48,720 nt of DNA from an uncultured Phycisphaeraceae bacterium (GTDB lineage Bacteria > Planctomycetota > Phycisphaerae > Phycisphaerales > UBA1924), in contig CAYNRF010000001.1 in NCBI GenBank assembly GCA_964399525.1, forward strand, positions 2,125 through 50,844, written 5' to 3'. A program made the translations under genes and the position numbers. The notes beneath the pieces are model-generated. The model worked only from the letters and a program-made list of their open reading frames with translations. It did no database searches and had not been told where the DNA came from. Shown here piece by piece: positions 24,683 to 42,676 of the stretch. Positions within the stretch are counted from its first letter, which is position 1; the number at the start of each line of letters is the position of its first letter.

Positions 24683-24687
24683 GAACT

Positions 24688-24715: not shown

Positions 24716-24731
24716 CGAAAAGTCGGAGATA

Positions 24732-25793: not shown

Positions 25794-25920
25794 CTCATCT
25801 CTCCAAATCGATGTGCGAGACCATCCCTCACAATGGGTGCAGAGCATCCGGGCCTCGTCGGCTGCTCTCCGATCCTCATCTACGAAAACCGCGCGAGCGG
25901 GGTCGCGGGCCAAGAGGACC

Positions 25921-25940
25921 ACTAATATTCTATAACAATC
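25921..25940 (-). promoter_or_regulatory. AT-only motif (minus strand GTTATAGAATATTAG), candidate promoter -10 for the PEP-CTERM gene
   Basis: It shares the 12-mer TTATAGAATATT with 14647-14658. On the minus strand the arrangement is TTGTGC-N18-TAGAAT. It lies about 130 nt upstream of ATG 25793. Confidence 0.4.
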
Positions 25941-26063
25941 CGGGATGGTTGCACAAGAGCCTTCCCGACTTCGTGAGGGAAAATCTCGGCCGAGGCGAGT
26001 GAAAGTACTTTCTTTGTCCCGGCAGGCACGACCCGGGGGCTTCACGGACCTCCGGGCGTCACC

Positions 26064-26990: not shown

Positions 26991-27112
26991 GACGGACGGT
27001 CTCCTGAGGGGGGCGATGCAGGGGTGTGGGGCCGGGGAACCGAAAGGTACTGGGGGATCTTGGAGATGATGGGGCGGCCGGCGAGGTTGGCAGTGGTGGG
27101 GTGGACGGGAGC

Positions 27113-27139
27113 GGGGGGCGGGGGGCGGGGGCGGGGGGG
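27113..27139 (+). repeat. G-quadruplex-type G-tract array (G6-C-G6-C-G5-C-G7) on the template strand of an operon spacer
   Basis: Read directly from the sequence: GGGGGGCGGGGGGCGGGGGCGGGGGGG. It lies inside the 163-nt spacer 26991-27153, which is strongly C-rich and G-poor on the transcribed (minus) sense. Confidence 0.7.
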
Positions 27140-27153
27140 AGTGACCGGGACGG

Positions 27154-28182
27154 CTACCACTTCGGTGTGACCGGGGATCCGGAGGCGGCGCTCTGACGCT
27201 CGGCCTCGATGAGCCGGGTCACCGCCAGGGCATCGTCGAGGGTGGGCAGGCCGTCGCGGGGACCGCCCGCGGCCGCGGCCACCACGGCGCGGGCCTGCAT
27301 GTCGTACCCGGACTCGGCCGGCAGCGGTGCAGGGGTCGCCTCGCCCCCCGCGTGCAAGGTCATCGCGGGGCTGCGTGAGGAGTCGAACGCGACGACGCCC
27401 CGTTCGAACTCGACCGTGAACGCCATGCGGAAGGGAAAGGACCGGTCGTTGAGCCAGCCGCCCTCGGTCTGGACGGCCGGGCCGCCCGCGTAGCACATCT
27501 GCGTGGCGATGTGGTGGTCGTCACCGATCGACCGGACGGAGTCGGGCCGGCCGAACAGCGACAGGGCGAAATCGGCGTCGTGCACGTGCAGATCGAAGAT
27601 CGCGCCGCCGCTGCGGGCCGGGTCCGCGTAGAAGTCGCCGGCCCAGGCCGGGGGGGCTCCCAGGCGTTCGAAACGGGCGTGCACGACGCGGCCGTAACGT
27701 TCGTCGGCGATCATCGACCGCAGGTCCGACCAGCCGGGCCAATGGCGCACGCACATCGCCGGGACGCAGAGAAGGTCGGTCCGCGCCGCCCGCTCGGCGA
27801 GCATGCGGATCGGCGGGAGGGTGACGGCGACGGGCTTCTCGACCAGCACGTGCTTGCCCGCGTCGAGCGCCCGCAGCGCCAGATCCACGTGGGAATCCGT
27901 GTGGGTGCAGATGCTCACCAGATGGATGGATCGGTCGGCGAGCAGTGCTTCCGGCTCGGCGTACCCGGCGACCTCGGCCGGGTCGAACAGGCGGTCTTCG
28001 GCGGCGCCGGGCCCGATGTTGCCCGCCCCGGTCGCCCGGCCCGTCCGTCGGTCCGGGTCCCGGTCGCAGACGGCGCGGAGCACGCAGGGCGAACCCGAGG
28101 CCGCGGCCGCCAAATAGGCCCGGGTGTGGGTCTGGCCCATGAAACCCATGCCGATCACGCCGATGCCGATGGTGCCGCTCAT
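27154..28182 (-). CDS. Gfo/Idh/MocA-family oxidoreductase
   Basis: 342 aa from ATG 28182 (MSGTIGIGVIGMGFMGQTHTRAY...HVLVEKPVA). The ATG overlaps the upstream TGA (ATGA at 28179-28182). Tracked ORF 27154-28887 overruns. Confidence 0.88.
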   Translation of the reverse strand: MSGTIGIGVIGMGFMGQTHTRAYLAAAASGSPCVLRAVCDRDPDRRTGRATGAGNIGPGAAEDRLFDPAEVAGYAEPEALLADRSIHLVSICTHTDSHVDLALRALDAGKHVLVEKPVAVTLPPIRMLAERAARTDLLCVPAMCVRHWPGWSDLRSMIADERYGRVVHARFERLGAPPAWAGDFYADPARSGGAIFDLHVHDADFALSLFGRPDSVRSIGDDHHIATQMCYAGGPAVQTEGGWLNDRSFPFRMAFTVEFERGVVAFDSSRSPAMTLHAGGEATPAPLPAESGYDMQARAVVAAAAGGPRDGLPTLDDALAVTRLIEAERQSAASGSPVTPKW

Positions 28183-29015
28183 GTGTGCTCGATCCATTCC
28201 ACGGACGAACGGACCAGCGCCGCGGCGGTCCGGACATCCTCGACCCGCTGCTCGCCCGCCTCCCGCTCGATCACCAGGTCGCAGTCGCTCAGACGCTGGC
28301 GGACGATGGCAAAGAAACGCGCCCAGTCCACCGCGCCGGTCCCCGCCGGGACTTCCCGGCCCCAGCTCCCCGGGACCGGCGTGTACAGGGCGTCCTTGAT
28401 GTGGATCTGCTCGACGCGCGGGGCGAGCTTGGTCAGCGCCTCGACCGGGTCGCCCATGTTGTACAGGATCATGTTGGCCGGATCGAAGTTGATGCCCACG
28501 GTGGGCCGGTCGAGCGCGTCGAGCGCTTCGAGCAGCGTGCCGGCGTCCTCCTGGCCCGTCTCCAGCGCCACGCGGACGCCGCAGCCGTGGAACACGTCCG
28601 CCAGATCCCGCAGGCGGTGGATCAGCTTGTCCCACTCCGGATCCTGGCGATCGTGGGGGATGAAGCCCGCGTGGAAGGTGACGAGGTTGACGCCGATGCG
28701 TGCCGCCAGCTCGGCGTCGCGTCGCGCCGCGGCCAGATTCTCGGGCCAGGTGCGGTCCGGGCGGACGCCGCCGGTCTCCCGGATGGTGTCGAGCGTGGAG
28801 TAGTCCTCTCCCGCGGTGGCCATCATGCCGGAGACGATCTCGATGCCGGCCCCGTCGAGCAGCGACACGGTTTCGATCTCGTCCCATTCACCGGTGCGCA
28901 CCGGGTCGAGGGCCAGCTGCACGGCGGAGAGGCCGCACTGCCTGATCTTGGCCACGAGATCGCCCGGCGAGGTCGGGCGCAGCGACCACGAGCACACGCC
29001 CAGCGCCGCGCTCAA
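28179..29015 (-). CDS. Sugar phosphate isomerase/epimerase (xylose-isomerase-like TIM barrel)
   Basis: About 278 aa. VNLVTFHAGF, RVALETGQE, GINFDPANM and IHIKDA are the metal-ligand blocks of the AP_endonuc_2 fold. The proposed TTG start at 29015 overlaps the nagB TGA (TTGA). The start is not certain. Confidence 0.8.
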   Translation of the reverse strand: MSAALGVCSWSLRPTSPGDLVAKIRQCGLSAVQLALDPVRTGEWDEIETVSLLDGAGIEIVSGMMATAGEDYSTLDTIRETGGVRPDRTWPENLAAARRDAELAARIGVNLVTFHAGFIPHDRQDPEWDKLIHRLRDLADVFHGCGVRVALETGQEDAGTLLEALDALDRPTVGINFDPANMILYNMGDPVEALTKLAPRVEQIHIKDALYTPVPGSWGREVPAGTGAVDWARFFAIVRQRLSDCDLVIEREAGEQRVEDVRTAAALVRSSVEWIEHT

Positions 29016-31054
29016 CGCCCGGCTCCCGTCTGGGCGAGGGGCTTGATCTCCGCGGCGGACGCGGCCTCGTCCAGCGATCCGTCGGCGGCGCTGGGCTTCC
29101 AGGTCACGAACCCTTCGATGGCCTGGTACTCGGGCAGGCCCAGGGCGTCGTAGAGCTCGGCGGTGGCCCGGTTGCGATCCTCGGCCCGTTCCCAGAACTC
29201 TCGCGGGTCGTTGGGGCCCGGGAACAGAGCGCGGTCCTTCTGGCTCTGGTGCTTGAAGATCGCCATGCGCTTGCGGTCCACCTCGTCGGGCGACAGGGGC
29301 ACCGCCATCTCGATGTCCTCGGCGCCCCATTCCTGCCACGCGCCGCGGTACAGCCACACGGTGCAGTCCTTCATCCACGCCTCGTCACGCAGCCGGTGCA
29401 GCGCCGTGGTGATCGCCGCCAGGCACACCCGGTGCGTTCCGTGCGGGTCGGACAGATCGCCCGCCGCGTAGACCTGATGGGGCTTGACGCTGCGCAGCAG
29501 GTCCGTCACGATCCGGATATCGTCCTCGCCCAGCGGCTTCTTCTTGACCTTGCCGGTCTCGTAGAAGGGCATGTCCAGGAAGTGGATGTTCTCCGCCTTG
29601 ACGCCCGAGTACTTCGCGCCCGCGCGTGCCTCGGCCCGCCGGATCAGGCCCTTGATGGTCTGGATCTCGGCCGAGTCGACCTCGCCGGGCTCCTTGTCGC
29701 GGATGAAGTCCTGCACGCGACCGGTCAGCGCCGTGATCTGTTCGACCGCAATTCCCAAAGCGTTGGAGAGCTCCTGGGTAAAGTCGGCGAACTTGGCGGC
29801 TTCGTCGTCGAAGACGGCGATGTTGCCGCTGGTCTGGTAGGCGACGTGCACCTCGTGCCCCTGGTCGCACAGGCGGATGAAGGTGCCGCCCATCGAGATG
29901 ACGTCGTCGTCGGGGTGCGGGCTGAACACGATCACCCGCTTGGGGAACACGTCGTCGGTCCGCGTGTCGTCGATGCCCTTGCCGGGGACGAACATCGGAC
30001 GCCCCGGCTTGCCGCCGGGCCAGCCGGTGATGGTTTTCTGGAGGTTCTTGAACACCTCGATGTTCACCTGATACGCCCCGCCGCGCGCGGCGACCAGCTC
30101 CTGCAGTCCGTGCTCGTTGTAGTCCTCGTTGGTCAGCTTGAGGATGGGCTTCTTGAGCGAGCGCGCCAGCCAGATCACCGCCCGCTTGACGAGCCGGGCG
30201 TCCTCCCACGAATGGCCGAACCGCTTGACCGGGCCGAGCAGCCAGGGGGTCTTGAAGCGGGTCAGTTCCGCCGCGGCCGCCTCGTCGAGCACGAAGCGGG
30301 CGTTGGGATGCTCCTGGAGGAACGAGGCGGCGACCGTGTTGGTGATCTCGCCCTCGACCGCGCGGCGGACGATCGGCGCCTTGTGCTCGCCGAAGGCCAT
30401 CAGCACCACCCGCTTGGCATCGAGGATGGAGCCCACACCCATGGTGATCGCCTGGTGCGGCACGTTCCACTCGCCGAAGAAGTCGCTGGCCGCGTCCATC
30501 CGCGTGACCTTGTCCAGCGTGATCAGGCGGGTGCGGCTGTCCTTGCTCGAGCCGGGCTCGTTGAAGCCGACGTGGCCCGTCCGGCCGATGCCCAGCAGCT
30601 GCAGGTCCAGACCGCCGGCATCAGCGATCGCCTTCTCGTAGCGCTCGCAGTACGCGTCGACATCGTCACGCGGGATCGTGCCGTCGGGCACGTGGGCGTT
30701 CTTCGGGTCAATGTCCACGTGGTCGAACAGGTGCTCGCGCATGAAGCGGCGGTAGCTCTGCAGCTCGTCCGGGCCCATCGGCCAGTACTCGTCGAGGTTG
30801 AAGCTGATCACGTCGCGGAACGACAGCCCTTCCTCGCGGTGCAGCCGGACCAGTTCGTCGTAGACGGCCTGGGGGGTCGACCCGGTCGCCAGACCCAGCA
30901 CGGTCTTCTCGCCGCGGGCGGACTTGGCGCGGATCAGCTCGGCGATCTCGCGGGCCACGGCCCGCGAGGCGGAGCTGGAAGAGGCATAAACGGTGACGGG
31001 GACGCGCTCGGGGGCGTGCCCGGTCGCGTGTGCGGCGTGGTCAGATCCGATCAC
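29012..31054 (-). CDS. nagB: Glucosamine-6-phosphate deaminase (NagB) fused to an LmbE/PIG-L-type N-deacetylase domain
   Basis: 680 aa. The N-terminal half has VLGLATGSTP, FNLDEY and LLGIGRTGHVGFNEPGS (NagB). The C-terminal half has VIVFSPHPDDDVISMGGT...HEVHVAYQTSG (PIG-L/LmbE zinc deacetylase motif). Confidence 0.9.
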   Translation of the reverse strand: MIGSDHAAHATGHAPERVPVTVYASSSSASRAVAREIAELIRAKSARGEKTVLGLATGSTPQAVYDELVRLHREEGLSFRDVISFNLDEYWPMGPDELQSYRRFMREHLFDHVDIDPKNAHVPDGTIPRDDVDAYCERYEKAIADAGGLDLQLLGIGRTGHVGFNEPGSSKDSRTRLITLDKVTRMDAASDFFGEWNVPHQAITMGVGSILDAKRVVLMAFGEHKAPIVRRAVEGEITNTVAASFLQEHPNARFVLDEAAAAELTRFKTPWLLGPVKRFGHSWEDARLVKRAVIWLARSLKKPILKLTNEDYNEHGLQELVAARGGAYQVNIEVFKNLQKTITGWPGGKPGRPMFVPGKGIDDTRTDDVFPKRVIVFSPHPDDDVISMGGTFIRLCDQGHEVHVAYQTSGNIAVFDDEAAKFADFTQELSNALGIAVEQITALTGRVQDFIRDKEPGEVDSAEIQTIKGLIRRAEARAGAKYSGVKAENIHFLDMPFYETGKVKKKPLGEDDIRIVTDLLRSVKPHQVYAAGDLSDPHGTHRVCLAAITTALHRLRDEAWMKDCTVWLYRGAWQEWGAEDIEMAVPLSPDEVDRKRMAIFKHQSQKDRALFPGPNDPREFWERAEDRNRATAELYDALGLPEYQAIEGFVTWKPSAADGSLDEAASAAEIKPLAQTGAGR

Positions 31055-31176
31055 GGGTCTCTCCCTCGGAGACGGTGTCAGAACCCGGCGGGCGCGATGC
31101 CTTGGGTAAAATCCCCGCGTCCAACTTCTTGGTCACGGGGCTTCTTCGGATCGGGGAGGGATTGCACCGATCCTCG

Positions 31177-31196
31177 AAAGATTATATAACCTTACT
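31177..31196 (-). promoter_or_regulatory. AT-only motif (minus strand GGTTATATAATCTTTCG), candidate internal promoter -10 for nagB
   Basis: It contains TATAAT. It overlaps the stop codon (TAA, 31182-31184) of the upstream Gfo gene. It matches 37250-37265 at 14 of 16 positions. It lies about 125 nt upstream of ATG 31054. Confidence 0.35.
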
Positions 31197-32189
31197 GGCT
31201 CGGGCGGCGTTGTCAACCGCCTCGGCCGCACCAAGCCCGTCCCGGGCGTCTGCCAGGTCTCCGCGGGGCGTCTCCCCGCGGGCGGCCCTGGCAAAGTGGG
31301 CAAGCTGTCGGGAGAAGCGGACCTCGTGAGACTCGACCTGGATCACCTCGGGCTGCCCGATGCCGGGCCGGTACACCAGCTCGGTGGGCTTCATGTAGTC
31401 GTAGTGCAGGGAGCCGTTGGTGCCGATCAGGTCGACGGTGAACCGCTCGGGCTCGAGCCATCCGGCCAGGATGACCCCGGCCACACCGGCGTGCTTGCCT
31501 TCCGAGGCCTTGACCAGCACGGTGGCGCTCGATTCGCCTCGCCCGTTCCAGTCGTAGTCGTACACCGAACCGACCACCTCGGCCGGGCCGACCAGGTAAC
31601 GGAACAGGTCCAGCGAGTGGCAGCCGGTGTCGATGAACGAGCCGCCCCCGGACACGGCCGGATCGGACATCCACCGCTCGGCCATGGGCGGGTGGTGGAA
31701 CGCGAAGGCGTTCTCGAACCGCGAGAGACGCCCGATCTTGCCGGACGCGACCAGCTTCTTCATCTCCACGATGGGCGGCGCGAAGCGGTGGCAGTAGGCG
31801 ATGCCGAACAGCGTCGCGGGGTGCGCGTCGGCGATCTCGACGATGCGGGCGGCATCCTCGGGGTTCGACGCCAGCGGCTTTTCGGCCAGCACCGCGATGC
31901 CGCGCTGCAGGGCGTGGCGGATCGGCTCGACCCGGACGGTGGGGGGGGTGCAAAGCACCACGCCGTCCAGCTTCAGGTCGCCCCCGTCGACCGCCCGGAA
32001 CAGGTCGTCCGTCGAGGCGAACGCCTTGGCGCCGTGCTGCTCGGCGAGTTTGGCGGCGGCCTGCGCGTTCGGATCGACGACGGCGACGATCCGCACGAGG
32101 CCGCCCGAGTCCTTGGCGGCCGCCGAGTGGGCGTTGGAAATGCCTCCGGCACCGATGACGCCGAGGGCGAAAGATCCGTTGTTGCTCAT
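31182..32189 (-). CDS. Gfo/Idh/MocA-family oxidoreductase
   Basis: 335 aa. Motifs LGVIGAGGISNAH, VLCTPP and AVLAEKPLA. Confidence 0.9.
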   Translation of the reverse strand: MSNNGSFALGVIGAGGISNAHSAAAKDSGGLVRIVAVVDPNAQAAAKLAEQHGAKAFASTDDLFRAVDGGDLKLDGVVLCTPPTVRVEPIRHALQRGIAVLAEKPLASNPEDAARIVEIADAHPATLFGIAYCHRFAPPIVEMKKLVASGKIGRLSRFENAFAFHHPPMAERWMSDPAVSGGGSFIDTGCHSLDLFRYLVGPAEVVGSVYDYDWNGRGESSATVLVKASEGKHAGVAGVILAGWLEPERFTVDLIGTNGSLHYDYMKPTELVYRPGIGQPEVIQVESHEVRFSRQLAHFARAARGETPRGDLADARDGLGAAEAVDNAARASKVI

Positions 32190-32272
32190 GTCTTACACCA
32201 TCCGGGCGATGCCCGGTGTCAGAACTCCTCCGCGGAAGGCCGATGCCCCCGCCGTGCTTGAAGGGTAGACGC

Positions 32273-33769
32273 ATGCTGGACCGATTCGTCAAGTTGATGT
32301 TCCTGGCCGCCTGCCTGGCGGCCCCCGCGGGTTGCGGGGCCCCGGCCCGGGCCGAGTCGCCCGCTCCCCCGACCGCGCCCGCCGAGGTCCGGGGCGTGTG
32401 GCTGACCACCACCGCCAACGACCACATCGCCAGCGAGGCCGACACGGCCCGGACCATGCGCCGCCTCCGCGAGATCGGCCTGAACACCGTCTACGTGGAA
32501 GCGTGGAAGAACGGCTACACGCAGTACCCCTCCGAGGTCCTCCGCCGGGTGATCGGCGTGGACCGCCGACCCGCGCTCATCAAACAGGATCCCGGCGACC
32601 CCGACCGCGCCGTCGAGGCCCGCGATCTGCTGGGCGAGACGGTGCTCGAAGCGCATCGCAACGGGCTGCTGATCATCGGCTGGTTCGAGTACGGCTTCAT
32701 GGCCGCCCACAAGGACACCCAGAACCACCTGCGCGAGATGTACCCGCACTGGCTCAGCCGGGACAAGGACGGCAACGAGGTGGCCCCCAACGGCTTCGTC
32801 TGGATGAACCCGCTTCACCCGGAAACGCGCCGCCTGCTCCTCGATCTGATCCTCGAGGCCGTGGACCGGTACGACCTGGACGGCGTGCAGCTCGACGACC
32901 GGATCGTCTGGCCCTACTACACGATGGGGTACGACGACTTCACGGTGGCCTGGTACCGCAACGAGCACGCCGGGGCGGCCCCGCCCGCCGACCCGCGGGA
33001 TCCGGAGTGGATGCGCTGGCGTGCGGACAAGGTCAACGAGTACGCCCGCCAGTTCGTCCGAGAACTCCGCGAAGCGCGGCCCGGCCTGATCGTCTCGCTC
33101 AGCCCCGCGCCCTATCCGTGGTGCTGGGAGAACTATCTGCTCGAGTGGCCCAAGTGGGCGGCCTGGCAGCCGGGAAACGACAAGAACATGTGGTGGGATG
33201 AGTTCATCCCCCAGTGCTACCGCTACAGCTGGCCGGCGTTCAAGGCGACCTGGGATCAGCAGGTCGGGAACCTCCGGGACGCGGGGGCCGAAAACAGGGT
33301 CAAGGACATGCTCGCCGGGGTGCTGACCACCGGCAGCCAGCCCGACCCGGTGCCCTGGGAAGACCTGCGTCAGTCCGTCGAGTACGTGCGCGCCACCGGC
33401 GGCGGGGGCCACGTGTGGTGGTTCAGCCGTGGTGTGCTGGACGTCTATCCCAACGAGATGGCTGCGTTTTATGACGTTGAATCCCGTGGTCGGGCGCCGC
33501 ATCCGATGCGTCCCGCCGACTGGCGACCGGCCCCGATCGTGATCGAGGGCCGCCCGGACGGGGCGGTGCATGTCTTCCCCATGCGGGATGTCCCCCCGGG
33601 CCGCTACCGCGTCATCCGGCATGCCGCGGACGGGCCCGCGGCGGACGACACCTGGTCGATCGATGTCCGGCCCGGAGCCGCCGACATCCGCCTGCCACGC
33701 AGCGTCGAGCGGATCGAGCTGCTGGCCGATCGCCGCCCGGCCATGATGAGTTATCCGCCCAGTCCGTGA
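32273..33769 (+). CDS. GHL10 (PF02638/DUF187; YngK/DigH-like) glycosyl hydrolase lipoprotein
   Basis: Start ATG 32273 (MLDRFVKLMFLAACLAAPAGC lipobox). VRGVWLTT...LREIGLNTVYVEAWKNGYTQYPS and DGVQLDDRIVWP are typical of the GHL10 TIM barrel. Confidence 0.85.
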   Translation: MLDRFVKLMFLAACLAAPAGCGAPARAESPAPPTAPAEVRGVWLTTTANDHIASEADTARTMRRLREIGLNTVYVEAWKNGYTQYPSEVLRRVIGVDRRPALIKQDPGDPDRAVEARDLLGETVLEAHRNGLLIIGWFEYGFMAAHKDTQNHLREMYPHWLSRDKDGNEVAPNGFVWMNPLHPETRRLLLDLILEAVDRYDLDGVQLDDRIVWPYYTMGYDDFTVAWYRNEHAGAAPPADPRDPEWMRWRADKVNEYARQFVRELREARPGLIVSLSPAPYPWCWENYLLEWPKWAAWQPGNDKNMWWDEFIPQCYRYSWPAFKATWDQQVGNLRDAGAENRVKDMLAGVLTTGSQPDPVPWEDLRQSVEYVRATGGGGHVWWFSRGVLDVYPNEMAAFYDVESRGRAPHPMRPADWRPAPIVIEGRPDGAVHVFPMRDVPPGRYRVIRHAADGPAADDTWSIDVRPGAADIRLPRSVERIELLADRRPAMMSYPPSP

Positions 33770-33823
33770 GCCATCCGCCCGATGAGGACCGAACGCAACA
33801 CCGAACCGACCCGAGAGGCCCCG

Positions 33824-36256
33824 ATGTTCAGCCGATACGCCGTCGTTTTTCCGTTGTGCCTGCTGTTCCTGGCGGTCGCGGCCTTTCCGCTCGGGGCCGC
33901 TCCGATCACCCTGACCGAGATCGACCGCACGCTGCAGGGCCGCAAGGTCCGCGGCTGGGTCGCGGTGGTTGATCTGAGCGACCCCCGGGTCGAGACGGTC
34001 GTGACCGGGCCGGCCCCCGCCGGGACCGACGCCGAAGCGGTGCTGACGCGCACCGACCTGTGGCAGCAGGCCAACGGTGTGCGTCTGGCCGTCAACGCCA
34101 ACTTCTACGCCACCCTGCCCGGCGGCAAGGCCGACATCGTCGGCCTGAGCGTTTCCGACGGGGTGATCGTCTCCGGGGCGCGGCGCTTCGAGTCCAACCC
34201 CCACGATCCCGCCCTGGTCTTCCGCCAGGACGGTTCGGCCGCCATCGGGAGCTTTTCCAACACCGACGCCCAGCAGGCCCGCGACGCGGTCGCCGGGGTC
34301 GGGCCTTCCAACACCGACTCCGTCGCGGGCACGCAGCTCGTCACCGACGGCCAGAACACGGGCGCGACCGCGCGTGTCGAGCCGGCGACCCGGGCCCCCC
34401 GCACGGCCGCGGGCGTGAGCCAGGACGGGCGGACGCTCGTCCTGATGGTGATCGACGGGCGCCAGCCGGGCTGGTCCGACGGCGTGACCCTGTCGCAGCT
34501 CGCGGACCTGATGATCGAGTTCGGCTCGTGGGATGCGATCAATCTCGACGGCGGGGGCTCGAGTTCGTTCATCCACGACGACGGGACGCAGCGCGTCACG
34601 AACCGCCCTTCGGACGGCCAGTTCCGCGCCGTCGCGAACCACCTGGGCATCCGGGTCAACGCCGCGCTGCCCCCGGACGCGCAGACCCGCCGCAAGATCC
34701 GCGGCGTGTGGCTGCGCCCGCCGGCCTCGGTCGCGGCGCTCGGGCCGACGTTCCAGACGCTCGCCTCGTGCGGCATCCGCGACGTCTACCTGGAGACCTT
34801 CTACTGGGGGCGGGCGACCAACGACTCGGCGGTGTTCCAGGATCGATTCTCGTTCGATTACCTGTCCGAGGCGATCCGCATCGGCGCGGCCAAGGGCATC
34901 CGCGTGCACGCGTGGCTCGAGGCGGCGTACTGGTCGTTCCAGGGATCGGGCGATTACATCCTCAACCAGCACCCCGAGTGGAAGGTCGTGGATCACAACG
35001 AGAACACCAACATCGGCGACCAGGCCGGTCAGGTGTTCGTCAACATCGGGCTGCCCGGCGTGCAGGCCAAGCTGGCCGAGTATTGCCGCGAGCTGGCGGC
35101 CTACCCGGGTCTGTGGGGCATCCAGACCGACTACCACCGCTTCCCGCTGGACAACAACACCGCCGACAACCAGCCGGCGCCGTACTCGTACGACTTCGAT
35201 TCGCGTCTGGCGTTCTTCGGACAGTATGGCGTCGATCCGCTCGTCGCCGTCCGCTCCCCGACCGCGCCGCTGTGGAACCAGTGGGTCGCGTTCCGCCGCG
35301 ACCGGATCGCCCGCGCCGCCCAGGCGATGCACAACGCCATCAACGAGGTGGCGCCCGCGCTGGTCTTCTCCGGGGCCATCTTCGCGCAGGCGATGACCAA
35401 CCCGTCCCAGCTCGTCAAGATGCAGGACTGGCCGACCATGGCCGCCAACGGCTGGCTTGAGCACGTCGTTCCGATGGCGTATTCGACCAGCACGACGGGC
35501 ATCCGCAACGACCTGCAGTCCGCGCTCAACCAGGCCGGGGGCGCGCGGATCGTTGCGGGCCTGGCCATCCTCACCAACCAGACCCGGCCGGGCATCGCCC
35601 AGCAGCTGGGCGCCGCCAAGGGCGTGGGCATCGAGGACTTCATCCTGTTCGACGCCAACGTGCTGGTGGCCAGCACGGCGATGCAGAACGAACTGCGCAG
35701 CTTTCTCCAGACCCAGGCCACCTTCCAGAACGCGGACTTCAACCGGGATTTCGACGTCGACTCCCGCGACTGGCAGTTTCTCGAATATGCCATGACCTTC
35801 GAGCCCGGACCGCCGCCGCCGGGCTTCGAGGCGGCCGATCTGAACGGCGACGGCTCGATGGGGCCCGCGGACCGGGCCATCTTCCGGGACCAGTTCCGCA
35901 AGCACCGCTTCAACGCCCAGGGCGTCGTGGGCGAGCGCGAGATGCGCGCTTTTCTCGATTCTTTCACCGGACCGGGGCCGGGCGGCCTGGCGCTGGGCGT
36001 CCACCACCTGCACGATCTCGACGGCGACGGCGACGTGGACTACGCCGACCAGCTGATCCTGCACGCGCTGCTGACCGAGCCCGTCCCGTTCGACCTGGAC
36101 CTCAACGCCAGCGCCACGGTGGACGTCGATGATCTCCACGCCTGGTTCGCCCAGCCCCGGGACGTCAACCGCGACGGCATCATCGACCAGCGGGATCGGG
36201 AGCTGCTCGAGCAGGTGATCCGGGACGGCGAGCTCGACGCGGTCTCCGGCCGCTAG
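33824..36256 (+). CDS. Secreted multidomain protein: phosphodiester glycosidase (NAGPA-like, PF09992), GHL10 domain and classical dockerin repeats
   Basis: Start ATG 33824 (MFSRYAVVFPLCLLFLAVAAFPLGAAP). NAGPA-like blocks are VNANFYA, GLSVSDGVIVS and TAAGVSQDGRTLVLMVIDGRQPGWSDGVTL...INLDGGGSS. The GHL10 domain begins at IRGVWLRPP (~34690). EF-hand/dockerin loops are DFNRDFDVDSRD, DLNGDGSMGPAD, DLDGDGDVDYAD and DVNRDGIIDQRD (~35730-36250). Confidence 0.85.
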   Translation: MFSRYAVVFPLCLLFLAVAAFPLGAAPITLTEIDRTLQGRKVRGWVAVVDLSDPRVETVVTGPAPAGTDAEAVLTRTDLWQQANGVRLAVNANFYATLPGGKADIVGLSVSDGVIVSGARRFESNPHDPALVFRQDGSAAIGSFSNTDAQQARDAVAGVGPSNTDSVAGTQLVTDGQNTGATARVEPATRAPRTAAGVSQDGRTLVLMVIDGRQPGWSDGVTLSQLADLMIEFGSWDAINLDGGGSSSFIHDDGTQRVTNRPSDGQFRAVANHLGIRVNAALPPDAQTRRKIRGVWLRPPASVAALGPTFQTLASCGIRDVYLETFYWGRATNDSAVFQDRFSFDYLSEAIRIGAAKGIRVHAWLEAAYWSFQGSGDYILNQHPEWKVVDHNENTNIGDQAGQVFVNIGLPGVQAKLAEYCRELAAYPGLWGIQTDYHRFPLDNNTADNQPAPYSYDFDSRLAFFGQYGVDPLVAVRSPTAPLWNQWVAFRRDRIARAAQAMHNAINEVAPALVFSGAIFAQAMTNPSQLVKMQDWPTMAANGWLEHVVPMAYSTSTTGIRNDLQSALNQAGGARIVAGLAILTNQTRPGIAQQLGAAKGVGIEDFILFDANVLVASTAMQNELRSFLQTQATFQNADFNRDFDVDSRDWQFLEYAMTFEPGPPPPGFEAADLNGDGSMGPADRAIFRDQFRKHRFNAQGVVGEREMRAFLDSFTGPGPGGLALGVHHLHDLDGDGDVDYADQLILHALLTEPVPFDLDLNASATVDVDDLHAWFAQPRDVNRDGIIDQRDRELLEQVIRDGELDAVSGR

Positions 36257-36282
36257 ATCCTGATCAGAAAGGCCTGGCGCGC

Positions 36283-37161: not shown

Positions 37162-37246
37162 AAAATGCTTTCGTGGTTCCGATCGTGTTCCGGTCCACGA
37201 TTTCGACGGCTCCTGCCCCGATTTTCCCCTTCCGACCAAGGGAAAT

Positions 37247-37264
37247 AAGTTATATAATCATTCC
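37247..37264 (+). promoter_or_regulatory. AT-only motif AAGTTATATAATCATTCC, candidate promoter -10 for the GC-dockerin paralogue
   Basis: TATAAT at 37253-37258, with TTCCGA 17 nt upstream. It lies about 65 nt upstream of ATG 37325. The inverted repeat TTTCCC/GGGAAA (37223-37245) sits immediately upstream. Confidence 0.4.
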
Positions 37265-37324
37265 AGCGGAGTCCGGCGCGAGCCGGGCACGCTCCATCAG
37301 CAAGATCAGAGGGAGACCGGACTC

Positions 37325-38680: not shown

Positions 38681-38707
38681 GCCCCGCTCTGATCCGCGTG
38701 TTTCCTC

Positions 38708-38740
38708 GGCCGCCCCGGGCTCTGCCCGGGGCGGCCTTTT
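38708..38740 (+). terminator. Rho-independent terminator
   Basis: GGCCGCCCCGGG-CTCTG-CCCGGGGCGGCC (12-bp perfect stem) followed by TTTT. It abuts the stop of the convergent symporter gene. Confidence 0.65.
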
Positions 38741-40401
38741 CATGCCCGGGCACGCTCCGGGAAGATCCTCGCCGTCACGAGTCCCACCAGCCAGGCCGCA
38801 GCGCTGGCGATCGCCAGTTTCCACACGAACGCCAGATCCAGCACCGCCAGCAGCGGCGGGCGGGCCGCCACCGGATCGGCCAGGCGGGCGGCGCGGAAGT
38901 TCTCGCGCAGGGCGCTCAGATCAACGATGTTGGCCCAGACGATGTCCTGCATGGCCAGCACCACGACAAATCCGGTCACGAGCGTCGCCACGACGCCCGC
39001 GGTGCTGCCCCCCCGGGTCAGCAGCGCTGTCAGGAAGACGGGGATCAGGCCGGCGTAGGCGAACGTCATGACCGACAGGGCGAACGTGAGCAGCGTCCCG
39101 CCCTCGCGCAGTTCTCCTTCCTGCGACTGCCAGAACACACAGACCACGGCGAACCCGCCCAGGATCAGGCCCCATCCCACCACCGCGCACCGCCCGGCGC
39201 GCAGGTAGTGCCGCTCGTCGCGGTCGGGGCGCAGACGCCGGTAGAAGTCGTTGATGAAGGTTGACGCCATGGCGTTGATGCCGCTGTTCAGGCTCGAAAG
39301 CCCCGCCGCGAACAGCCCGGCCATCATCAGGCCGCTCACGCCGGCCGGCATGTGGTCGATGATGAAGCTCAGGAACACCCGGCGGGAATCCTCGGGCACG
39401 GCCGGGGCTTCGAGACCGTGGTCCGCCCACATCTGCGGCTGCTGGTAGAAGAGCCACAGCAGCAGACCCACGATCAGGAAGAGCGCCACCGAAGGCACCC
39501 CGAACAGGATGCCCCCGATCACCGATCGGGCGGCCGACTTCTCGTCCTTGCAGGTCAGCATCCGCTGGGTGAGGTCCTGGTCGGTCCCGTAGGACGCGAT
39601 GCCCATCAGGGCGAACCCGACGATCACCGCCGGCAGGGAGAACGGCATCGTCCACCAGGGGTCCGCGCCGGAGCCGGCCTGGATGACCGTCAGCTTGCTG
39701 GCCTGGCCGTCCCCCGGGCTGGCGAGCATCGCCACGGCCTCGCCCGCCGAGACGGGCAGCTGCCAGGCGATCAGCCCGATCGCCAGCACGCAGGCGCCCA
39801 GCAGCACCGCCATCTGGACCACGTCGGTCCAGATCACGCTCGAGATCCCGCCGGCGAGGGTGTAGACGATCCCCACGACCGTCAGCCCGGCGATCGCGAT
39901 GCACAGGTTGCCCGGCTCCAGCCCGGCGTCCCCGAAGAGGATGATCGATGCCGGGATGGCCCCGATGAACACGCGGACGCCGCTGGCCATGATCCGCCCG
40001 AGCATGTACGCCCCGCTCGTCGCCTGCATGGCGGTGCGCCCGTACCGCTGGTCGAGCAGCTCATAGATCGTCCGCACCCGCCTGCGATAGAACGCCGGGA
40101 TAAACAGGAAGGCGATGACGAACGCCGCGATGACCATGCCGATGTTCGTGCTCAGGTATGTCAGGTCCCCCGTGTATCCCTGCTGCGGAACGCCGATGAA
40201 GCTCGCCGCCGACATGCTCGTGGCCACGATCGACACCCCGACGGCCCAGGCGGGCATCCGGCGTCCGCCGAGGAAATAGTCGTCCGTCCCGGTCTGCTCG
40301 CGGCGCGCGTACCACACGCCCGTCACGGCCAGCACGGCGAAATAGCCGCCCAGAACCACCCAGTCCAGCGTCGCCAGGTCCGAAGAGAATCGCGTGAGCA
40401 T
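38740..40401 (-). CDS. Sodium:solute symporter family (SSF) transporter
   Basis: 553 aa from ATG 40401 (MLTRFSSDLATLDWVVLGGYFAVLAVTGVWYARRE...DDYFLGGRRMPAWAVGVSIVATSMSAASFIG). About 13-14 TM segments. Tracked ORF 38740-40587 overruns the start. Confidence 0.9.
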   Translation of the reverse strand: MLTRFSSDLATLDWVVLGGYFAVLAVTGVWYARREQTGTDDYFLGGRRMPAWAVGVSIVATSMSAASFIGVPQQGYTGDLTYLSTNIGMVIAAFVIAFLFIPAFYRRRVRTIYELLDQRYGRTAMQATSGAYMLGRIMASGVRVFIGAIPASIILFGDAGLEPGNLCIAIAGLTVVGIVYTLAGGISSVIWTDVVQMAVLLGACVLAIGLIAWQLPVSAGEAVAMLASPGDGQASKLTVIQAGSGADPWWTMPFSLPAVIVGFALMGIASYGTDQDLTQRMLTCKDEKSAARSVIGGILFGVPSVALFLIVGLLLWLFYQQPQMWADHGLEAPAVPEDSRRVFLSFIIDHMPAGVSGLMMAGLFAAGLSSLNSGINAMASTFINDFYRRLRPDRDERHYLRAGRCAVVGWGLILGGFAVVCVFWQSQEGELREGGTLLTFALSVMTFAYAGLIPVFLTALLTRGGSTAGVVATLVTGFVVVLAMQDIVWANIVDLSALRENFRAARLADPVAARPPLLAVLDLAFVWKLAIASAAAWLVGLVTARIFPERARA

Positions 40402-40447
40402 GCCGGGCACGATACCCTCCCCCGTCCAACCCTGCACGGAGACGCCG

Positions 40448-41455
40448 ATGCGACGGAATCGAATGACTGTCCTGCTGCTCGCCCTGGTCGCCGCCGTGGC
40501 CGGCTGCCGCGCGCCCGCGCCGCTGCCCGGCGACCGCCTGGAGCGGCGTGGGGACGAGATCGTGGTCGCCGGGCAGCTGTTCCACACCGGAGCCCCCGTC
40601 GTCCTCTGGACGGATCCGGGCGGTTACGACGCGTACCGCGTCGAGCGACGCTTCGCCCGGGCCGAGGAATCCTCGTGGAACGCCATCAAGGATGCGCTGG
40701 ACACCCCGAACCGATACGGCCAGCGACGGACCGACGACCCGGAGCTCAACGAGCGTGTCCGCGGCGGTGGTTGGACCCTGGACGAGCTGCGCGGCGTCGT
40801 GGATCAGTTCGTGCTGCACTATGACGTCTGCGGGACCAGCCGCACCTGCTTCCGCGTCCTGCACGACATGCGCGGCCTGTCCGTCCACTTCATGCTGGAC
40901 ATCGACGGCACGATCTACCAGACGCTGGACGTCAAGGAGCGTGCCTGGCACGCCACGATCGCCAACGACCGATCGGTCGGCATCGAGATCGCCCATATCG
41001 GGGCCTATCCGACGCTGGATGCCAGGCCGCTGACCGAGTGGTACGGAGCCGACGCCGAAGGCCGCACGCGGATCACCATCCCCGAGCGGCTCGGTGACGG
41101 CGGCGTCCGCACGCCGGGATTCATCGGTTTCCCGGCCCGGGCCGAGCCGGTTTCTGGAACGATCAACGGCTCCGAGCTGGTGATGTGGGACCTGACGCCC
41201 GAGCAGTACGACTCGCTGATCAAGCTCACCGCCGCCCTGCACCGCGCGCTGCCGGGGATCGAGCTGAACTACCCCGCCGACCCGGACGGGAGGGTGCTCG
41301 ACCGGGTGCTGGACGCCGACGAGTTCCGCTCGTTCCGCGGCGTGCTGGCGCACTGGCACGTGCAGCGCAACAAGATCGACCCCGGGCCGGCGCTGGATTG
41401 GAACAAGGTGATCGGCGGGGCCCGCGAACTCGTCGAGCGGGCGGAGCGCCGCTAG
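40448..41455 (+). CDS. N-acetylmuramoyl-L-alanine amidase (Amidase_2/PGRP fold) lipoprotein
   Basis: Start ATG 40448 (MRRNRMTVLLLALVAAVAGC lipobox). FVLHYDVCGTS, HFMLDIDGTIYQ, AWHATIANDRSVGIEIAH and HWHVQRNKIDPGPALDW are the zinc and substrate motifs of Amidase_2. Confidence 0.85.
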   Translation: MRRNRMTVLLLALVAAVAGCRAPAPLPGDRLERRGDEIVVAGQLFHTGAPVVLWTDPGGYDAYRVERRFARAEESSWNAIKDALDTPNRYGQRRTDDPELNERVRGGGWTLDELRGVVDQFVLHYDVCGTSRTCFRVLHDMRGLSVHFMLDIDGTIYQTLDVKERAWHATIANDRSVGIEIAHIGAYPTLDARPLTEWYGADAEGRTRITIPERLGDGGVRTPGFIGFPARAEPVSGTINGSELVMWDLTPEQYDSLIKLTAALHRALPGIELNYPADPDGRVLDRVLDADEFRSFRGVLAHWHVQRNKIDPGPALDWNKVIGGARELVERAERR

Positions 41456-42609
41456 ACCTTCAGGACCACCCCCGCGCGGTCCAGGCCCCAGGCGATCAGC
41501 CACCACAGGCCGACCGTGAAGAGGGCAAAGCCGAGCGAGGCGTTCGGCGGGCTGAGCACTGCGTCAAACCCGGCGGTGATCCACGCCTTCACGGTCGGCG
41601 CGTCGCCGGGCCCCGGGACCAGGATCAGGATGCGAGCGAGGATGCCGGACCCGACGAACACCGTGATCGCGTGGCGTCCGAGCAGCACGAGGGCGGCCCC
41701 GCCCGGGAGCCGATGCCGGTCGAAGGCGAACAGGCACAGTCCCAGCGCGGCGATCGCCCAGCCCCCGGAGAAGAGCACGTAGCTGCTCGTCCAGAGCGGC
41801 TTGTTGAGGGGAACGAACCCGGACGCCCACCAGCCGGCGCTCGCGAAGGCAACACCGGCGAGGACCAGCCGCCCGCACAGCCCGGGCGTCGGCGCACGGC
41901 CCCGGACTGCCAGGCCGCACCAATAGCCCATCATGGTGGACACCAGCGCCGGCAGCGTGCTCAGCAGGCCCTCCGGGTCGGTCGGAGAACCTCTGTAGAG
42001 CCGAGGCTCGCCGAGCACCGCCCGGTCCACCCAGCGGACCAGATTGTCGGACTCGGAGAAGGGGTCGGCCCGGTTGAACAGCCACAGAGCCAGCGGGTAG
42101 ACCGCCAGGAGGCAGGCGCACACGGCGACCTGCCCGCGCACGCCGACGAACGCGGCGAGCACGCACGCCATCAGGTAGACAAGCCCGATGCGCTGCAGCA
42201 CGCCCGGCAGGCGGACGGATCCGAGTTCGGACGCCGCGTCCGACCAGGACCAGGCCGCCGCGGCCTGCCACAGCGGCTGGAAACCGTTGAGCAGCAGCCC
42301 GAGGCCGATCAGCAACGCCGTGCGGCGCAGCACCCGACCCCAGAACGCCGCGCCCGGCCGCCCGCCTTCCAGATGACGCGGCAGCGAGAAGGCCATGGCC
42401 GCGCCGACGATGAACAGAAAGAACGGAAAAATCAGGTCCGTTGGCGTGCACCCGTGCCAGGCGGCGTGGCGCAGCGGCGGGTACACGGCCGCCCACGAGC
42501 CGGGGTTGTTGACGAGGATCATCGCCGCGATGGTGGCGCCGCGGAAGGCGTCCAGACTTGCAAGCCGTGTCCTGCCGGGCTCGGATTGTGGGCCGGATCC
42601 GTCGGGCAT
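41452..42609 (-). CDS. Polytopic membrane protein, DUF5009 heparan-alpha-glucosaminide N-acetyltransferase (HGSNAT)-like
   Basis: 385 aa. RLASLDAFRGATIAAMILVNNPGSW and AAWHGCTPTDLIFPFFLFIVGAAMAFS blocks, with about 10 TM segments. It lies 67 nt downstream of speA on the same strand. Confidence 0.85.
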   Translation of the reverse strand: MPDGSGPQSEPGRTRLASLDAFRGATIAAMILVNNPGSWAAVYPPLRHAAWHGCTPTDLIFPFFLFIVGAAMAFSLPRHLEGGRPGAAFWGRVLRRTALLIGLGLLLNGFQPLWQAAAAWSWSDAASELGSVRLPGVLQRIGLVYLMACVLAAFVGVRGQVAVCACLLAVYPLALWLFNRADPFSESDNLVRWVDRAVLGEPRLYRGSPTDPEGLLSTLPALVSTMMGYWCGLAVRGRAPTPGLCGRLVLAGVAFASAGWWASGFVPLNKPLWTSSYVLFSGGWAIAALGLCLFAFDRHRLPGGAALVLLGRHAITVFVGSGILARILILVPGPGDAPTVKAWITAGFDAVLSPPNASLGFALFTVGLWWLIAWGLDRAGVVLKV

Positions 42610-42676
42610 CGATCCTGAGCCTCCCTCTGCATCGGCGTTGTTCGCGCCGCTGTCCCGAGAAGATCGGGCGATCGCG

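What the first reader, a model, noticed from the sequence alone, without database searches (positions are those of the whole stretch)
32273..36256. Tandem GHL10 (DigH-like) genes, one fused to a phosphodiester glycosidase and to classical dockerins: candidate cell-wall glycan stripping enzyme
Seen in sequence:
- A GHL10 lipoprotein (32273-33769) is followed by an 810-aa secreted protein.
- That protein contains an NAGPA-like phosphodiester glycosidase domain (~33950-34640), a second GHL10 domain (~34690-35700) and 4-5 EF-hand/dockerin loops (~35730-36250).

Established:
- The E. coli GHL10 member DigH (YddW) cleaves denuded peptidoglycan glycan strands.
- NAGPA-type enzymes hydrolyse GlcNAc-1-phosphodiester linkages. 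This is the chemistry that joins wall teichoic acids and secondary polymers to MurNAc in Gram-positive walls, and it also occurs in some capsules.

Inference:
- The fusion could first uncap phosphodiester-linked polymers and then cut the exposed glycan backbone. That would make it a scavenging enzyme for foreign cell walls or capsules.
- The genomic context fits a peptidoglycan and amino-sugar salvage theme. It includes Amidase_2 (40448-41455), the NagB-LmbE operon, a ROK-like kinase, HGSNAT-like proteins, lysA and symporters.
- I am not aware that this domain combination has been characterised.
Basis: partly seen in the sequence, partly recalled or inferred. Interest (0 to 1): 0.6.

Follow-up and report, generated by a model that had tools for sequence, protein, structure and literature searches.

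The report
Fused phosphodiester glycosidase and GHL10 enzyme
An uncultured aquatic planctomycete (Phycisphaerales) carries two exported sugar-chain-cutting enzymes, one fused to an "uncovering-enzyme"-type domain, at the front of a conserved amino-sugar feeding locus; this ties two poorly understood enzyme families to one still unproven substrate, most likely debris of other bacteria's cell walls.

Summary
Gene A (32273-33769) is a GHL10 protein. Gene B (33824-36256) is NAGPA + GHL10 + five dockerin-type calcium loops, confirmed by Pfam and by AlphaFold/Foldseek (Cwp19, DUF2233, vertebrate NAGPA).

The pair opens an operon (GHL10, fusion, ROK kinase, surface beta-propeller, terminator). It diverges from a three-Gfo, TIM-barrel and NagB-PIG-L operon under a GntR-type regulator. 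This locus recurs across Phycisphaerae. Where the fusion is missing, a stand-alone NAGPA orthologue sits in the same locus, so the NAGPA-GHL10 coupling is real.

Corrections:
- Neither gene is the DigH orthologue; that gene lies on another contig.
- The fused GHL10 replaces the second Asp of the family's Asp-Asp pair with an invariant Tyr, so its activity cannot be inferred from DigH or Cwp19.
- No cohesin was found. Some orthologues carry a GC-type dockerin instead, so the tail looks like a surface anchor.

Peptidoglycan is the leading substrate (amidase, MurQ/AnmK, NagZ-like neighbours) but unproven; GH18 and GH38 neighbours fit other GlcNAc glycans. Earlier notes of this scan report the same pairing in at least 25 other genomes. 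I found no paper characterising the combination. New variant of a known kind; interest 0.5.

The parts
32273..33769 (+). Gene A: exported A-type GHL10 TIM-barrel glycanase (498 aa). Signal with lipobox-like LAAC, barrel about nt 32384-33487, C-terminal beta-sandwich about nt 33530-33742. Keeps the Asp-Asp pair (LDDRIVWPY).
   Evidence: Pfam; AF2 and Foldseek, Cwp19 first then PgaB/BpsB GH153; invariant residues in 26 orthologues; motif alignment
33824..36256 (+). Gene B: secreted three-module protein (810 aa; alternative ATG at 33782)
   Evidence: (the database copy is 810 aa); GAGAGG lies 5 nt before ATG 33824
33905..34657 (+). NAGPA/DUF2233 phosphodiester-glycosidase domain. Invariant D256-G-G-G-S260 lies at nt 34547-34561 and invariant R282 at 34625.
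   Evidence: Pfam E 7.8e-32; PDB profile alignment to 3ohg and vertebrate NAGPA; invariant columns; motif role from PMC13474241
34694..35716 (+). B-type GHL10 TIM barrel. Invariant E338, H376, W378, E380, N421, D450 and Y451 (nt 35129-35134), K546, D549, Y567. The second Asp of the family's DD pair is Tyr.
35729..36253 (+). C-terminal tail with five dockerin/EF-hand-type calcium loops (35735-35770, 35837-35872, 36014-36049, 36098-36133 degenerate, 36161-36196)
   Evidence: Pfam Dockerin_1; regex scan; PDB profile hits to dockerins; swapped for a GC-type dockerin in orthologue P0024
36283..37161 (+). ROK-family sugar kinase, next in the same operon. Best weak hits are ManNAc and GlcNAc kinases.
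   Evidence: conserved position in L001, L003, L005, L006, L009, L012
37325..38680 (+). Secreted protein of unknown function with a GC-type dockerin tail, last gene of the operon. Paralogue of 24732-25793.
   Evidence: conserved after ROK in related loci
38708..38736 (+). Strong intrinsic-terminator-like hairpin (13 G-C pairs plus a T run) that closes the operon
26064..32189 (-). Divergent catabolic operon: Gfo/Idh/MocA (31182-32189), NagB+PIG-L (29012-31054), xylose-isomerase-like TIM barrel (28179-28988), Gfo (27154-28182), Gfo (26064-26990)
   Evidence: the same order occurs in L001, L003, L006, L007, L009, L012
23525..25793 (-). GntR-HTH/periplasmic-binding-fold regulator (23525-24682) and a secreted paralogue with a PEP-CTERM-like tail (24732-25793)
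38740..42609 (.). Accessory genes: SSF symporter (38740-40401, -), Amidase_2 lipoprotein (40448-41455, +), NagX-like membrane acyltransferase (41452-42609, -)
   Evidence: the amidase+SSF pair is again in the locus in L009 and L093

Best explanation
The two genes are the extracellular front end of a conserved Phycisphaerae locus for scavenging an N-acetyl-amino-sugar glycan. The most likely substrate is cell-wall debris of other bacteria: peptidoglycan carrying polymers joined through sugar-1-phosphate diesters. Shown: gene A is an exported GHL10 TIM barrel of a planctomycete-specific subtype. Gene B is a secreted protein joining an uncovering-enzyme-type (NAGPA/DUF2233) domain with an intact DGGGS catalytic loop, a divergent GHL10 barrel and a calcium-loop tail. 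Both genes are co-oriented with a ROK kinase and a surface protein, ahead of a terminator. They face an operon of three Gfo oxidoreductases, a TIM-barrel enzyme and NagB-PIG-L, under a GntR-type regulator. NAGPA and GHL10 travel together in this group whether fused or separate. Inferred: an AmiD-like lipoprotein amidase strips the peptides. The NAGPA domain hydrolyses the HexNAc-1-O-phosphate glycosidic bond, releasing the appended polymer and leaving a sugar 6-phosphate on the backbone. The GHL10 barrels bind and cut the bared glycan, with the A-type the more secure catalyst. The fragments are imported (SSF), phosphorylated (ROK), then deacetylated and deaminated (NagB-PIG-L). The tail holds the enzyme at the cell surface rather than in a cellulosome.
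For: Domains and folds. Catalytic loop: D256GGGS and R282 are invariant in 28 orthologues down to 40% identity, and the motif's role comes from PMC13474241. Conserved locus. Fusion versus separate genes: L007 has GHL10_B-dockerin without NAGPA but a stand-alone NAGPA in the same locus, and L006 and L012 have both. In relatives without the fusion, stand-alone NAGPA orthologues (41-55% identical) lie beside the same GntR regulator and Gfo_a in most loci. In 6 of the 12 such loci fetched they also lie within 10 kb of clear A-type GHL10 genes: L090, L092, L094, L096, L098, L099. Peptidoglycan markers in or beside the locus: Amidase_2 lipoprotein in the window, L009 and L093; MurQ+AnmK in L003; NagZ-like GH3 in L001. 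The two GHL10 members with a peptidoglycan assay both cut peptidoglycan glycan: Cwp19 (PMC6016235) and DigH (PMC12288456). Operon end. Tail as anchor: no cohesin found, about 80 GC-dockerin tails in the genome, tail swap in P0024.
Against: No biochemical data exist for any member. The fused GHL10 has Tyr where Cwp19 has Asp196, the proposed catalytic residue. The A and B types also carry Glu where DigH and Cwp19 have Gln77 and Asn, so their specificity may differ. The residue matching human E226, which reads the N-acetyl group, is Asn here, so HexNAc specificity is unproven. Several related loci carry GH18 (L005, L006) or GH38 (L001, L096, and the window 15 kb upstream) instead of peptidoglycan genes. 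Three fusion genes (L004, L089, L010) lie outside the locus, among housekeeping genes in L004. MurQ, AnmK and GH3 were not found in this 82%-complete genome. MurQ is present in 208 of 301 genomes of the class regardless of the locus. One GHL10 member, DogH, is reported to act on starch (PMC9967864). The next-nearest fold is the PNAG hydrolase PgaB.
Confidence: 0.5

Rival explanations
1. Same kind of scavenging locus, but the substrate is a GlcNAc-containing glycan that is not peptidoglycan. Candidates are chitin or chito-oligomers, (phospho)N-glycans or phosphoglycans of algae, fungi or protists, and the biofilm polymer PNAG. NAGPA would remove HexNAc-1-phosphate caps, as the vertebrate enzyme does on mannose-6-phosphate glycans.
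For: GH18 lies directly downstream in L005 and L006. GH38 alpha-mannosidase lies in L001 and L096 and 15 kb upstream in the window. NagX-like acyltransferases are known from chitin/GlcNAc regulons (NF046061). The second-best fold match for both barrels is PgaB/BpsB GH153, a PNAG hydrolase. The only biochemically defined NAGPA substrate is GlcNAc-1-P-6-Man on N-glycans (PMC13474241).
Against: The GH18 and GH38 genes are variable add-ons, not core genes. The amidase, MurQ/AnmK and NagZ-like add-ons point to peptidoglycan. The GHL10 members with a peptidoglycan assay both cut peptidoglycan. Chitin and PNAG contain no phosphodiester for NAGPA to act on.
Confidence: 0.28
2. The fused GHL10 barrel is not a hydrolase. 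It is a glycan-binding module, a 'dead' barrel, that docks the NAGPA domain on its polymer, and cutting is left to gene A and other paralogues.
For: The second Asp of the DD pair is an invariant Tyr (D450-Y451) in all 28 orthologues, and the Q-x-Y motif of beta-6 is M-x-Y. Pfam matches only profile positions 69-282 at 44 bits. This rival is compatible with either substrate hypothesis.
Against: About 25 barrel residues are invariant, including two Glu (E338, E380) shared with the A-type at strand ends, plus D413, D450 and D549. That is more than a binding module usually needs. B-type barrels also exist as stand-alone GHL10-dockerin proteins, about 12 clusters at 50% identity.
Confidence: 0.25
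3. The genes serve the cell's own envelope, either as autolysins for division and turnover (the DigH role) or by trimming a self-made exopolysaccharide. The COG4632 name 'exopolysaccharide biosynthesis protein' suggests the second.
For: JGI names of homologues. DigH and Cwp19 act on the producer's own wall. PgaB-like folds process self-made PNAG.
Against: A separate full-length DigH-like lipoprotein exists on contig 26. The locus holds a sugar-responsive regulator, a kinase, a deaminase and transporters, and none of the genes annotated in the ~20 kb of the locus (23525-42609) or in the related loci is a glycosyltransferase or polymer-export gene. Distribution is patchy: the fusion is in 2 of 301 class genomes sampled (this one and G218), and clear NAGPA orthologues are in about a dozen more.
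Confidence: 0.07

Closest known systems
Cwp19 of Clostridioides difficile (GHL10; PDB 5oq2/5oq3), a peptidoglycan lytic transglycosylase
   Same: Best structural match for both barrels (Foldseek E about 1e-17, TM 0.71-0.73). Same Pfam family. Both are exported and carry a C-terminal surface-attachment module.
   Different: Sequence identity is only 15-18%. Cwp19 is an autolysin anchored by CWB2 repeats. Here the genes sit in a catabolic locus. The A-type has Glu in place of Gln77 and lacks Arg132. The B-type also lacks Asp196 (Tyr). No NAGPA partner is described for Cwp19.
DigH (YddW) of E. coli, a divisome hydrolase of denuded peptidoglycan glycans
   Same: GHL10 family lipoprotein. The amidase-then-glycanase logic would fit the Amidase_2 neighbour.
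   Different: Not orthologous: P0001 is 23% identical (E 7e-14) and the P0002 barrel scores E 0.02. The genome's contig-26 gene is 30% identical over its full length (E 7e-66). DigH is a single housekeeping gene, not part of a regulated utilisation locus.
Vertebrate uncovering enzyme NAGPA (EC 3.1.4.45) and bacterial DUF2233 protein BACOVA_00430 (PDB 3ohg)
   Same: Same fold (TM 0.64-0.73), an invariant DGGGS loop, and the RT, DG and following Arg residues.
   Different: The residue matching human E226, which contacts the N-acetyl group, is Asn. There is no propeptide or EGF stalk. The domain is fused to a glycanase-like barrel. No bacterial member has a known physiological substrate.
Peptidoglycan and amino-sugar salvage clusters (AmiD/AmpDh2, NagZ, AnmK, MurQ, NagK, NagA/NagB) and Gram-negative polysaccharide utilisation loci
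   Same: Regulator, surface enzymes, importer, kinase and deaminase are arranged as one locus. The amidase, MurQ, AnmK and NagZ-like genes appear as add-ons in related loci.
   Different: There is no SusC/SusD pair. The core instead has three Gfo/Idh/MocA oxidoreductases, a xylose-isomerase-like barrel, beta-propeller surface proteins with PEP-CTERM or GC-dockerin anchors, and the NAGPA-GHL10 pair.
Cellulosomal type I dockerins
   Same: Pfam Dockerin_1 is over its cut-off. The tail has paired 12-residue calcium loops followed by helices, and the profile hits solved dockerins.
   Different: There are five loops, not two. No cohesin (PF00963) was found in the genome, which is 82% complete. Some orthologues use a GC-type dockerin instead.

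Membership tests
GHL10 (Pfam PF02638), gene A | Profile match above the gathering score | tested here: met
   189.3 bits against 27.9, profile positions 1-278 of 311
GHL10 (Pfam PF02638), gene A | (beta/alpha)8 barrel like Cwp19, with the Asp-Asp pair at the end of strand 4 | tested here: met
   Foldseek top hit is Cwp19, TM 0.71. D208-D209 are invariant in 26 orthologues and align with DigH and Cwp19 DD.
GHL10 (Pfam PF02638), gene B barrel | Profile match above the gathering score and a Cwp19-like fold | tested here: met
   44 bits against 27.9, partial profile 69-282. Foldseek top hit is Cwp19, E 2e-17, TM 0.73.
GHL10 (Pfam PF02638), gene B barrel | Asp-Asp pair (Cwp19 Asp195-Asp196; Asp196 is the proposed catalytic residue) | tested here: not met
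   The motif is G-I-Q-T-D450-Y451. The Tyr is invariant in 28 orthologues. Residue roles come from PMC5765458.
DigH orthologue (denuded-glycan hydrolase) | Closest relative of DigH in the genome, with the shared motifs HAW-N-P-x-R, DDYFY and PQ-x-YWP | tested here: not met
   The contig-26 gene is much closer (E 7e-66 against 7e-14) and keeps the motifs. Genes A and B do not.
DigH orthologue (denuded-glycan hydrolase) | Hydrolysis of peptide-free peptidoglycan strands | not testable with these tools
   This needs an enzyme assay.
NAGPA / DUF2233 phosphodiester glycosidase (PF09992) | Profile match above the gathering score and the three-subdomain alpha/beta fold | tested here: met
   111 bits against 25. 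3ohg scores E 1e-23 with the family profile. Foldseek TM is 0.64-0.73 to 3ohg and 6pku.
NAGPA / DUF2233 phosphodiester glycosidase (PF09992) | Invariant DGGGS loop (human D286-S290) and the phosphate-binding Arg (human R316) | tested here: met
   D256-G-G-G-S260 is invariant. R282 is invariant at the place where 3ohg also has Arg. The equivalence to R316 is inferred, not superposed.
NAGPA / DUF2233 phosphodiester glycosidase (PF09992) | GlcNAc recognition through E226/T227 (human numbering) | tested here: inconclusive
   These positions align to N192-T193. The Asn is at least 90% conserved and the Thr is variable.
Type I dockerin (PF00404) within a cohesin-dockerin system | Dockerin profile match with duplicated calcium loops | tested here: met
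   40.8 bits against 22.9; five loops
Type I dockerin (PF00404) within a cohesin-dockerin system | A cohesin partner encoded in the genome | tested here: not met
   No PF00963 match in G000. The genome is 82% complete, so absence is not proven.
Bacterial lipoprotein (gene A) | Lipobox [LVI][ASTVI][GAS]C at the end of a signal peptide | tested here: inconclusive
   L-A-A-C lies at residues 11-14 after a short hydrophobic stretch, with a second Cys at 21. A Cys after the signal is the majority state in 26 orthologues, but A_L005 has none.

The most novel reading that the evidence does not exclude
The NAGPA domain is a 'reverse-LCP' enzyme. It would hydrolyse the GlcNAc-alpha-1-phosphate glycosidic bond that ties wall teichoic acids, secondary wall polymers or capsules to C6 of MurNAc. 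That releases the polymer and leaves MurNAc-6-phosphate in the strand. The Tyr-bearing B-type barrel would then be a GHL10 variant adapted to this anionic, phosphorylated glycan, possibly with a Tyr/Glu nucleophile pair as in sialidases. This would give bacterial DUF2233 proteins their first physiological substrate. It would also define an extracellular route that feeds MurNAc-6-P units towards MurQ.
Probability: 0.2. Interest if true: 0.8.

Novelty: new variant of a known kind. Interest (0 to 1): 0.5.

Why it matters
Bacterial DUF2233/NAGPA proteins have had a structure since 2010 (PDB 3ohg; function paper 2013) but no known substrate. GHL10 has only two members with a tested peptidoglycan activity. 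In this group the two families are fused in one lineage and encoded side by side in its relatives. That is direct genomic evidence that they act on one polymer, inside a regulated amino-sugar catabolic locus. If the polymer is peptidoglycan carrying phosphodiester-linked polymers, this would be the first hydrolase known to me for the linkage made by LCP ligases. It would also show how abundant aquatic planctomycetes recycle bacterial necromass. If the polymer is something else, the locus still offers a compact, testable set of enzymes for assigning functions to two orphan families and to a new GHL10 subtype that lacks the usual acidic pair.

Tried and rejected
1. Diaminopimelate dehydrogenase as a peptidoglycan marker. 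The PF19328 genes beside L003, L097 and L020 looked like it, but NCBIfam calls the L003 gene 2,4-diaminopentanoate dehydrogenase-like and its neighbour BioF/Kbl-like. Dropped.

2. Phyletic profile of MurQ against the locus. MurQ is in 208 of 301 class genomes and 12 of 13 of the same family. It therefore does not discriminate, and its absence from this MAG is probably incompleteness.

3. Scan of species-representative genomes for the fusion. Only 3 full-length fusions and 1 NAGPA-less form came back; the rest were unrelated NAGPA genes.

4. Is NAGPA-GHL10 adjacency general? An HMM of my GHL10 alignment was run against 76 NAGPA loci from many phyla. It found GHL10 only in the Planctomycetota loci L013 and L020, plus a weak hit in L063. 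The adjacency is specific to this orthologue group in that sample.

5. Independent fusions among distant representatives. Ten long proteins with B-like barrels or NAGPA were scanned, and none had both domains.

6. Cellulosome reading. No cohesin was found.

7. Active-site geometry.

9. Literature searches for GHL10, DUF2233, 'phosphodiester glycosidase', 'uncovering enzyme' plus teichoic, and PF09992/PF02638 found no paper on the domain pair. The 2013 DUF2233 paper is not held.

Full report
**What is there**

The window is about 69% G+C throughout. Two co-oriented ORFs with coding-type GC3 occupy 32216/32273-33769 and 33782/33824-36256.

Gene A:
- It matches Pfam GHL10 at 189 bits.
- Its AlphaFold2 model (pLDDT 86, pTM 0.85) is a TIM barrel plus a C-terminal beta-sandwich.
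- The best solved relative is Cwp19, followed by the PNAG hydrolase domain of BpsB/PgaB.

Gene B:
- It matches NAGPA (111 bits), GHL10 (44 bits, partial profile) and Dockerin_1 (41 bits), all above the curated cut-offs.
- Its model (pLDDT 86.8, pTM 0.83) matches Cwp19, the bacterial DUF2233 structure 3ohg, vertebrate NAGPA and then PgaB.
- Five 12-residue calcium-type loops lie at 35735-36196, one of them degenerate.

**The operon**

ATG 33824 is preceded by GAGAGG, and the database copy of the protein is 810 aa. A ROK kinase starts 26 nt after gene B. A secreted protein with a GC-type dockerin (NF041540) follows, and a hairpin of 13 G-C pairs with a T run closes the unit at 38708-38736.

On the other strand, 83 nt from gene A, lies an operon with this order:
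- Gfo/Idh/MocA
- NagB+PIG-L (NF002557)
- a xylose-isomerase-like barrel
- Gfo
- Gfo

Beyond it lie a secreted paralogue with a PEP-CTERM-like tail, a GntR-HTH/binding-fold regulator and a DUF1559/N-methyl protein.

**Conservation**

The fusion has about 100 clusters at 90% identity and about 9 at 50%. All that carry a name are Planctomycetota or Phycisphaerales MAGs, and identity falls to about 40%. Around seven of them the locus is essentially the same as here: L001, L003, L005, L006, L008, L009 and L012.

Three observations show that NAGPA and GHL10 are coupled beyond the fusion:
- L007 has the B-type barrel and dockerin without NAGPA, but a stand-alone NAGPA at the other end of the same locus.
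- L006 and L012 have both a stand-alone NAGPA and the fusion.
- In 300 other genomes sampled from the class, only one (G218) besides this genome has the fusion. About a dozen have stand-alone NAGPA orthologues (41-55% identical). Most of these sit next to the same regulator and Gfo_a, and 6 of the 12 loci fetched have clear A-type GHL10 genes within 10 kb.

The adjacency is not a general property of NAGPA genes. Among 76 NAGPA loci from many phyla, only the planctomycete ones had a GHL10. Three fusion genes (L004, L089, L010) lie outside the locus.

**Active sites**

In a 28-sequence alignment the NAGPA domain keeps N-A-N, R-T, D-G, D256-G-G-G-S260 and R282 invariant.
- The DGGGS loop is the invariant sugar-phosphate site of the human enzyme. 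D286 and R316 are needed for its activity (PMC13474241).
- Human E226-T227, which read the N-acetyl group, align with N192-T193. Sugar specificity is therefore open.

The GHL10 domains fall into four subtypes:

| Subtype | Where | Motifs |
|---|---|---|
| DigH-like | contig 26 of this genome | Q, HAW-N-P-x-R, DDYFY, PQLYWP |
| A-type | gene A | VE[AT]W, GWFEYGF, LDDRIVWPY, PQCY |
| B-type | the fusion | LET, HAWxE, x-D-Y-H-R-F-P, PMAY |
| X-type | extra lipoproteins in L001, L003, L007 | LDYIRF |

- The contig-26 gene is 30% identical to E. coli DigH over its whole length (E 7e-66).
- Gene A is 23% identical to DigH (E 7e-14), and gene B's barrel scores E 0.02.
- In the B-type, the residue equivalent to Cwp19 Asp196 is an invariant Tyr. 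Asp196 is the only exposed acidic candidate named by the Cwp19 structure paper (PMC5765458).
- The A and B types share two Glu at the ends of strands 2 and 3, where DigH and Cwp19 have Gln and Asn.

So neither gene is 'DigH-like' in the sense of orthology. The fused barrel may use other chemistry or may only bind glycan.

**The tail**

No cohesin was found in the 82%-complete genome, and only five ORFs carry Dockerin_1. About 80 ORFs end in the GC-type dockerin. Orthologues such as P0024 end in a GC-type dockerin in place of the last classical loops. The tail therefore behaves as an exchangeable surface-attachment module.

**Substrate**

For peptidoglycan:
- The GHL10 members with a peptidoglycan assay both cut peptidoglycan glycan: Cwp19 is a lytic transglycosylase (PMC6016235) and DigH hydrolyses denuded glycans (PMC12288456).
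- An AmiD/AmpDh2-like Amidase_2 lipoprotein with an SSF symporter lies in the locus here, in L009 and, in another family, in L093.
- MurQ and AnmK abut the locus in L003, and a NagZ-like GH3 does so in L001.
- From established knowledge, LCP ligases join teichoic acids and capsules to MurNAc O6 through GlcNAc-1-phosphate. A NAGPA-type C1-O cleavage would leave MurNAc-6-P, which is the MurQ substrate. This step is inference.

Against peptidoglycan:
- GH18 follows the operon in L005 and L006, and GH38 is nearby in L001, L096 and the window.
- The NagX-like acyltransferases belong to GlcNAc/chitin regulons.
- DogH, a GHL10, is reported to act on starch.
- PgaB is the next-nearest fold.
- MurQ is almost universal in the class.
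- MurQ, AnmK and GH3 were not found in this incomplete genome.
- lysA is real (TIGR01048) but is a biosynthetic gene.

I put peptidoglycan-type wall debris at about 0.5 and another GlcNAc glycan at about 0.3.

**Known or new**

NCBI and JGI already list these proteins as 'phosphodiester glycosidase family protein' or 'YddW family'. Full-text searches found no paper on the domain pair.

Earlier notes of this scan report the same two families paired, and twice fused, in at least 25 other genomes. These include gut Clostridia, a betaproteobacterium, an Ignavibacteria-like bacterium and Paludibacteraceae. I did not verify those notes. My own sample of NAGPA loci did not show the pairing outside Planctomycetota.

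**Verdict**

This is a new variant of known kinds, and it gives a concrete, testable link between two orphan enzyme families.

Noticed in passing
G000 contig C26, about 11000-12700 (-), outside the window: This is the genome's true DigH/Cwp19-like GHL10 lipoprotein. It is 30% identical to E. coli DigH over its full length (E 7e-66), keeps all family motifs and has a C-terminal extension.
   Followed up: partly
window 8258-10399, 37325-38680, 46176-47039 (C-termini), and about 80 sites across G000: The GC-type dockerin (NF041540) is the dominant C-terminal tag of secreted proteins in this genome, and no cohesin was detected. Its binding partner is unknown.
   Followed up: partly
window 24732-25793 (-) and 37325-38680 (+): Two secreted paralogues (about 29% identical) of unknown function flank the locus. 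One has a PEP-CTERM-like tail and the other a GC-dockerin tail. Both positions are conserved in related loci.
   Followed up: partly
window 26064-32189 (-): This operon holds three Gfo/Idh/MocA oxidoreductases, a xylose-isomerase-like barrel and a NagB-PIG-L fusion. Weak NCBIfam hits point to glycoside 3-dehydrogenase, levoglucosan dehydrogenase and UDP-GlcNAc 3-dehydrogenase. It may be an oxidative route for an amino-sugar glycoside or an anhydro-sugar.
   Followed up: partly
window 11885-14628 (-) and 41452-44653 (-): Two NagX-like (HGSNAT/DUF5009) membrane acyltransferases are each paired with a PLP decarboxylase, lysA and speA respectively. The reason for the pairing is unexplained.
   Followed up: no
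L001 12430-13617, L003 14201-15613, L007 11851-13068: A fourth GHL10 subtype ('X') of lipoproteins carries LDYIRF, again Tyr in place of the second Asp. It is inserted after the fusion gene in some loci and is absent from the window.
   Followed up: partly
L003 18069-22436: Next to the locus lie a beta-lactamase-fold protein, a BioF/Kbl-like acyltransferase, a 2,4-diaminopentanoate-dehydrogenase-like gene, MurQ and AnmK. This may be a D-amino-acid/ornithine branch joined to MurNAc catabolism.
   Followed up: partly
L001 16042-18222: A 726-aa secreted protein combines Beta-lactamase2 and Peptidase_C39_2 domains, between the surface propeller gene and a NagZ-like GH3. No NCBIfam family matches it.
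   Followed up: no
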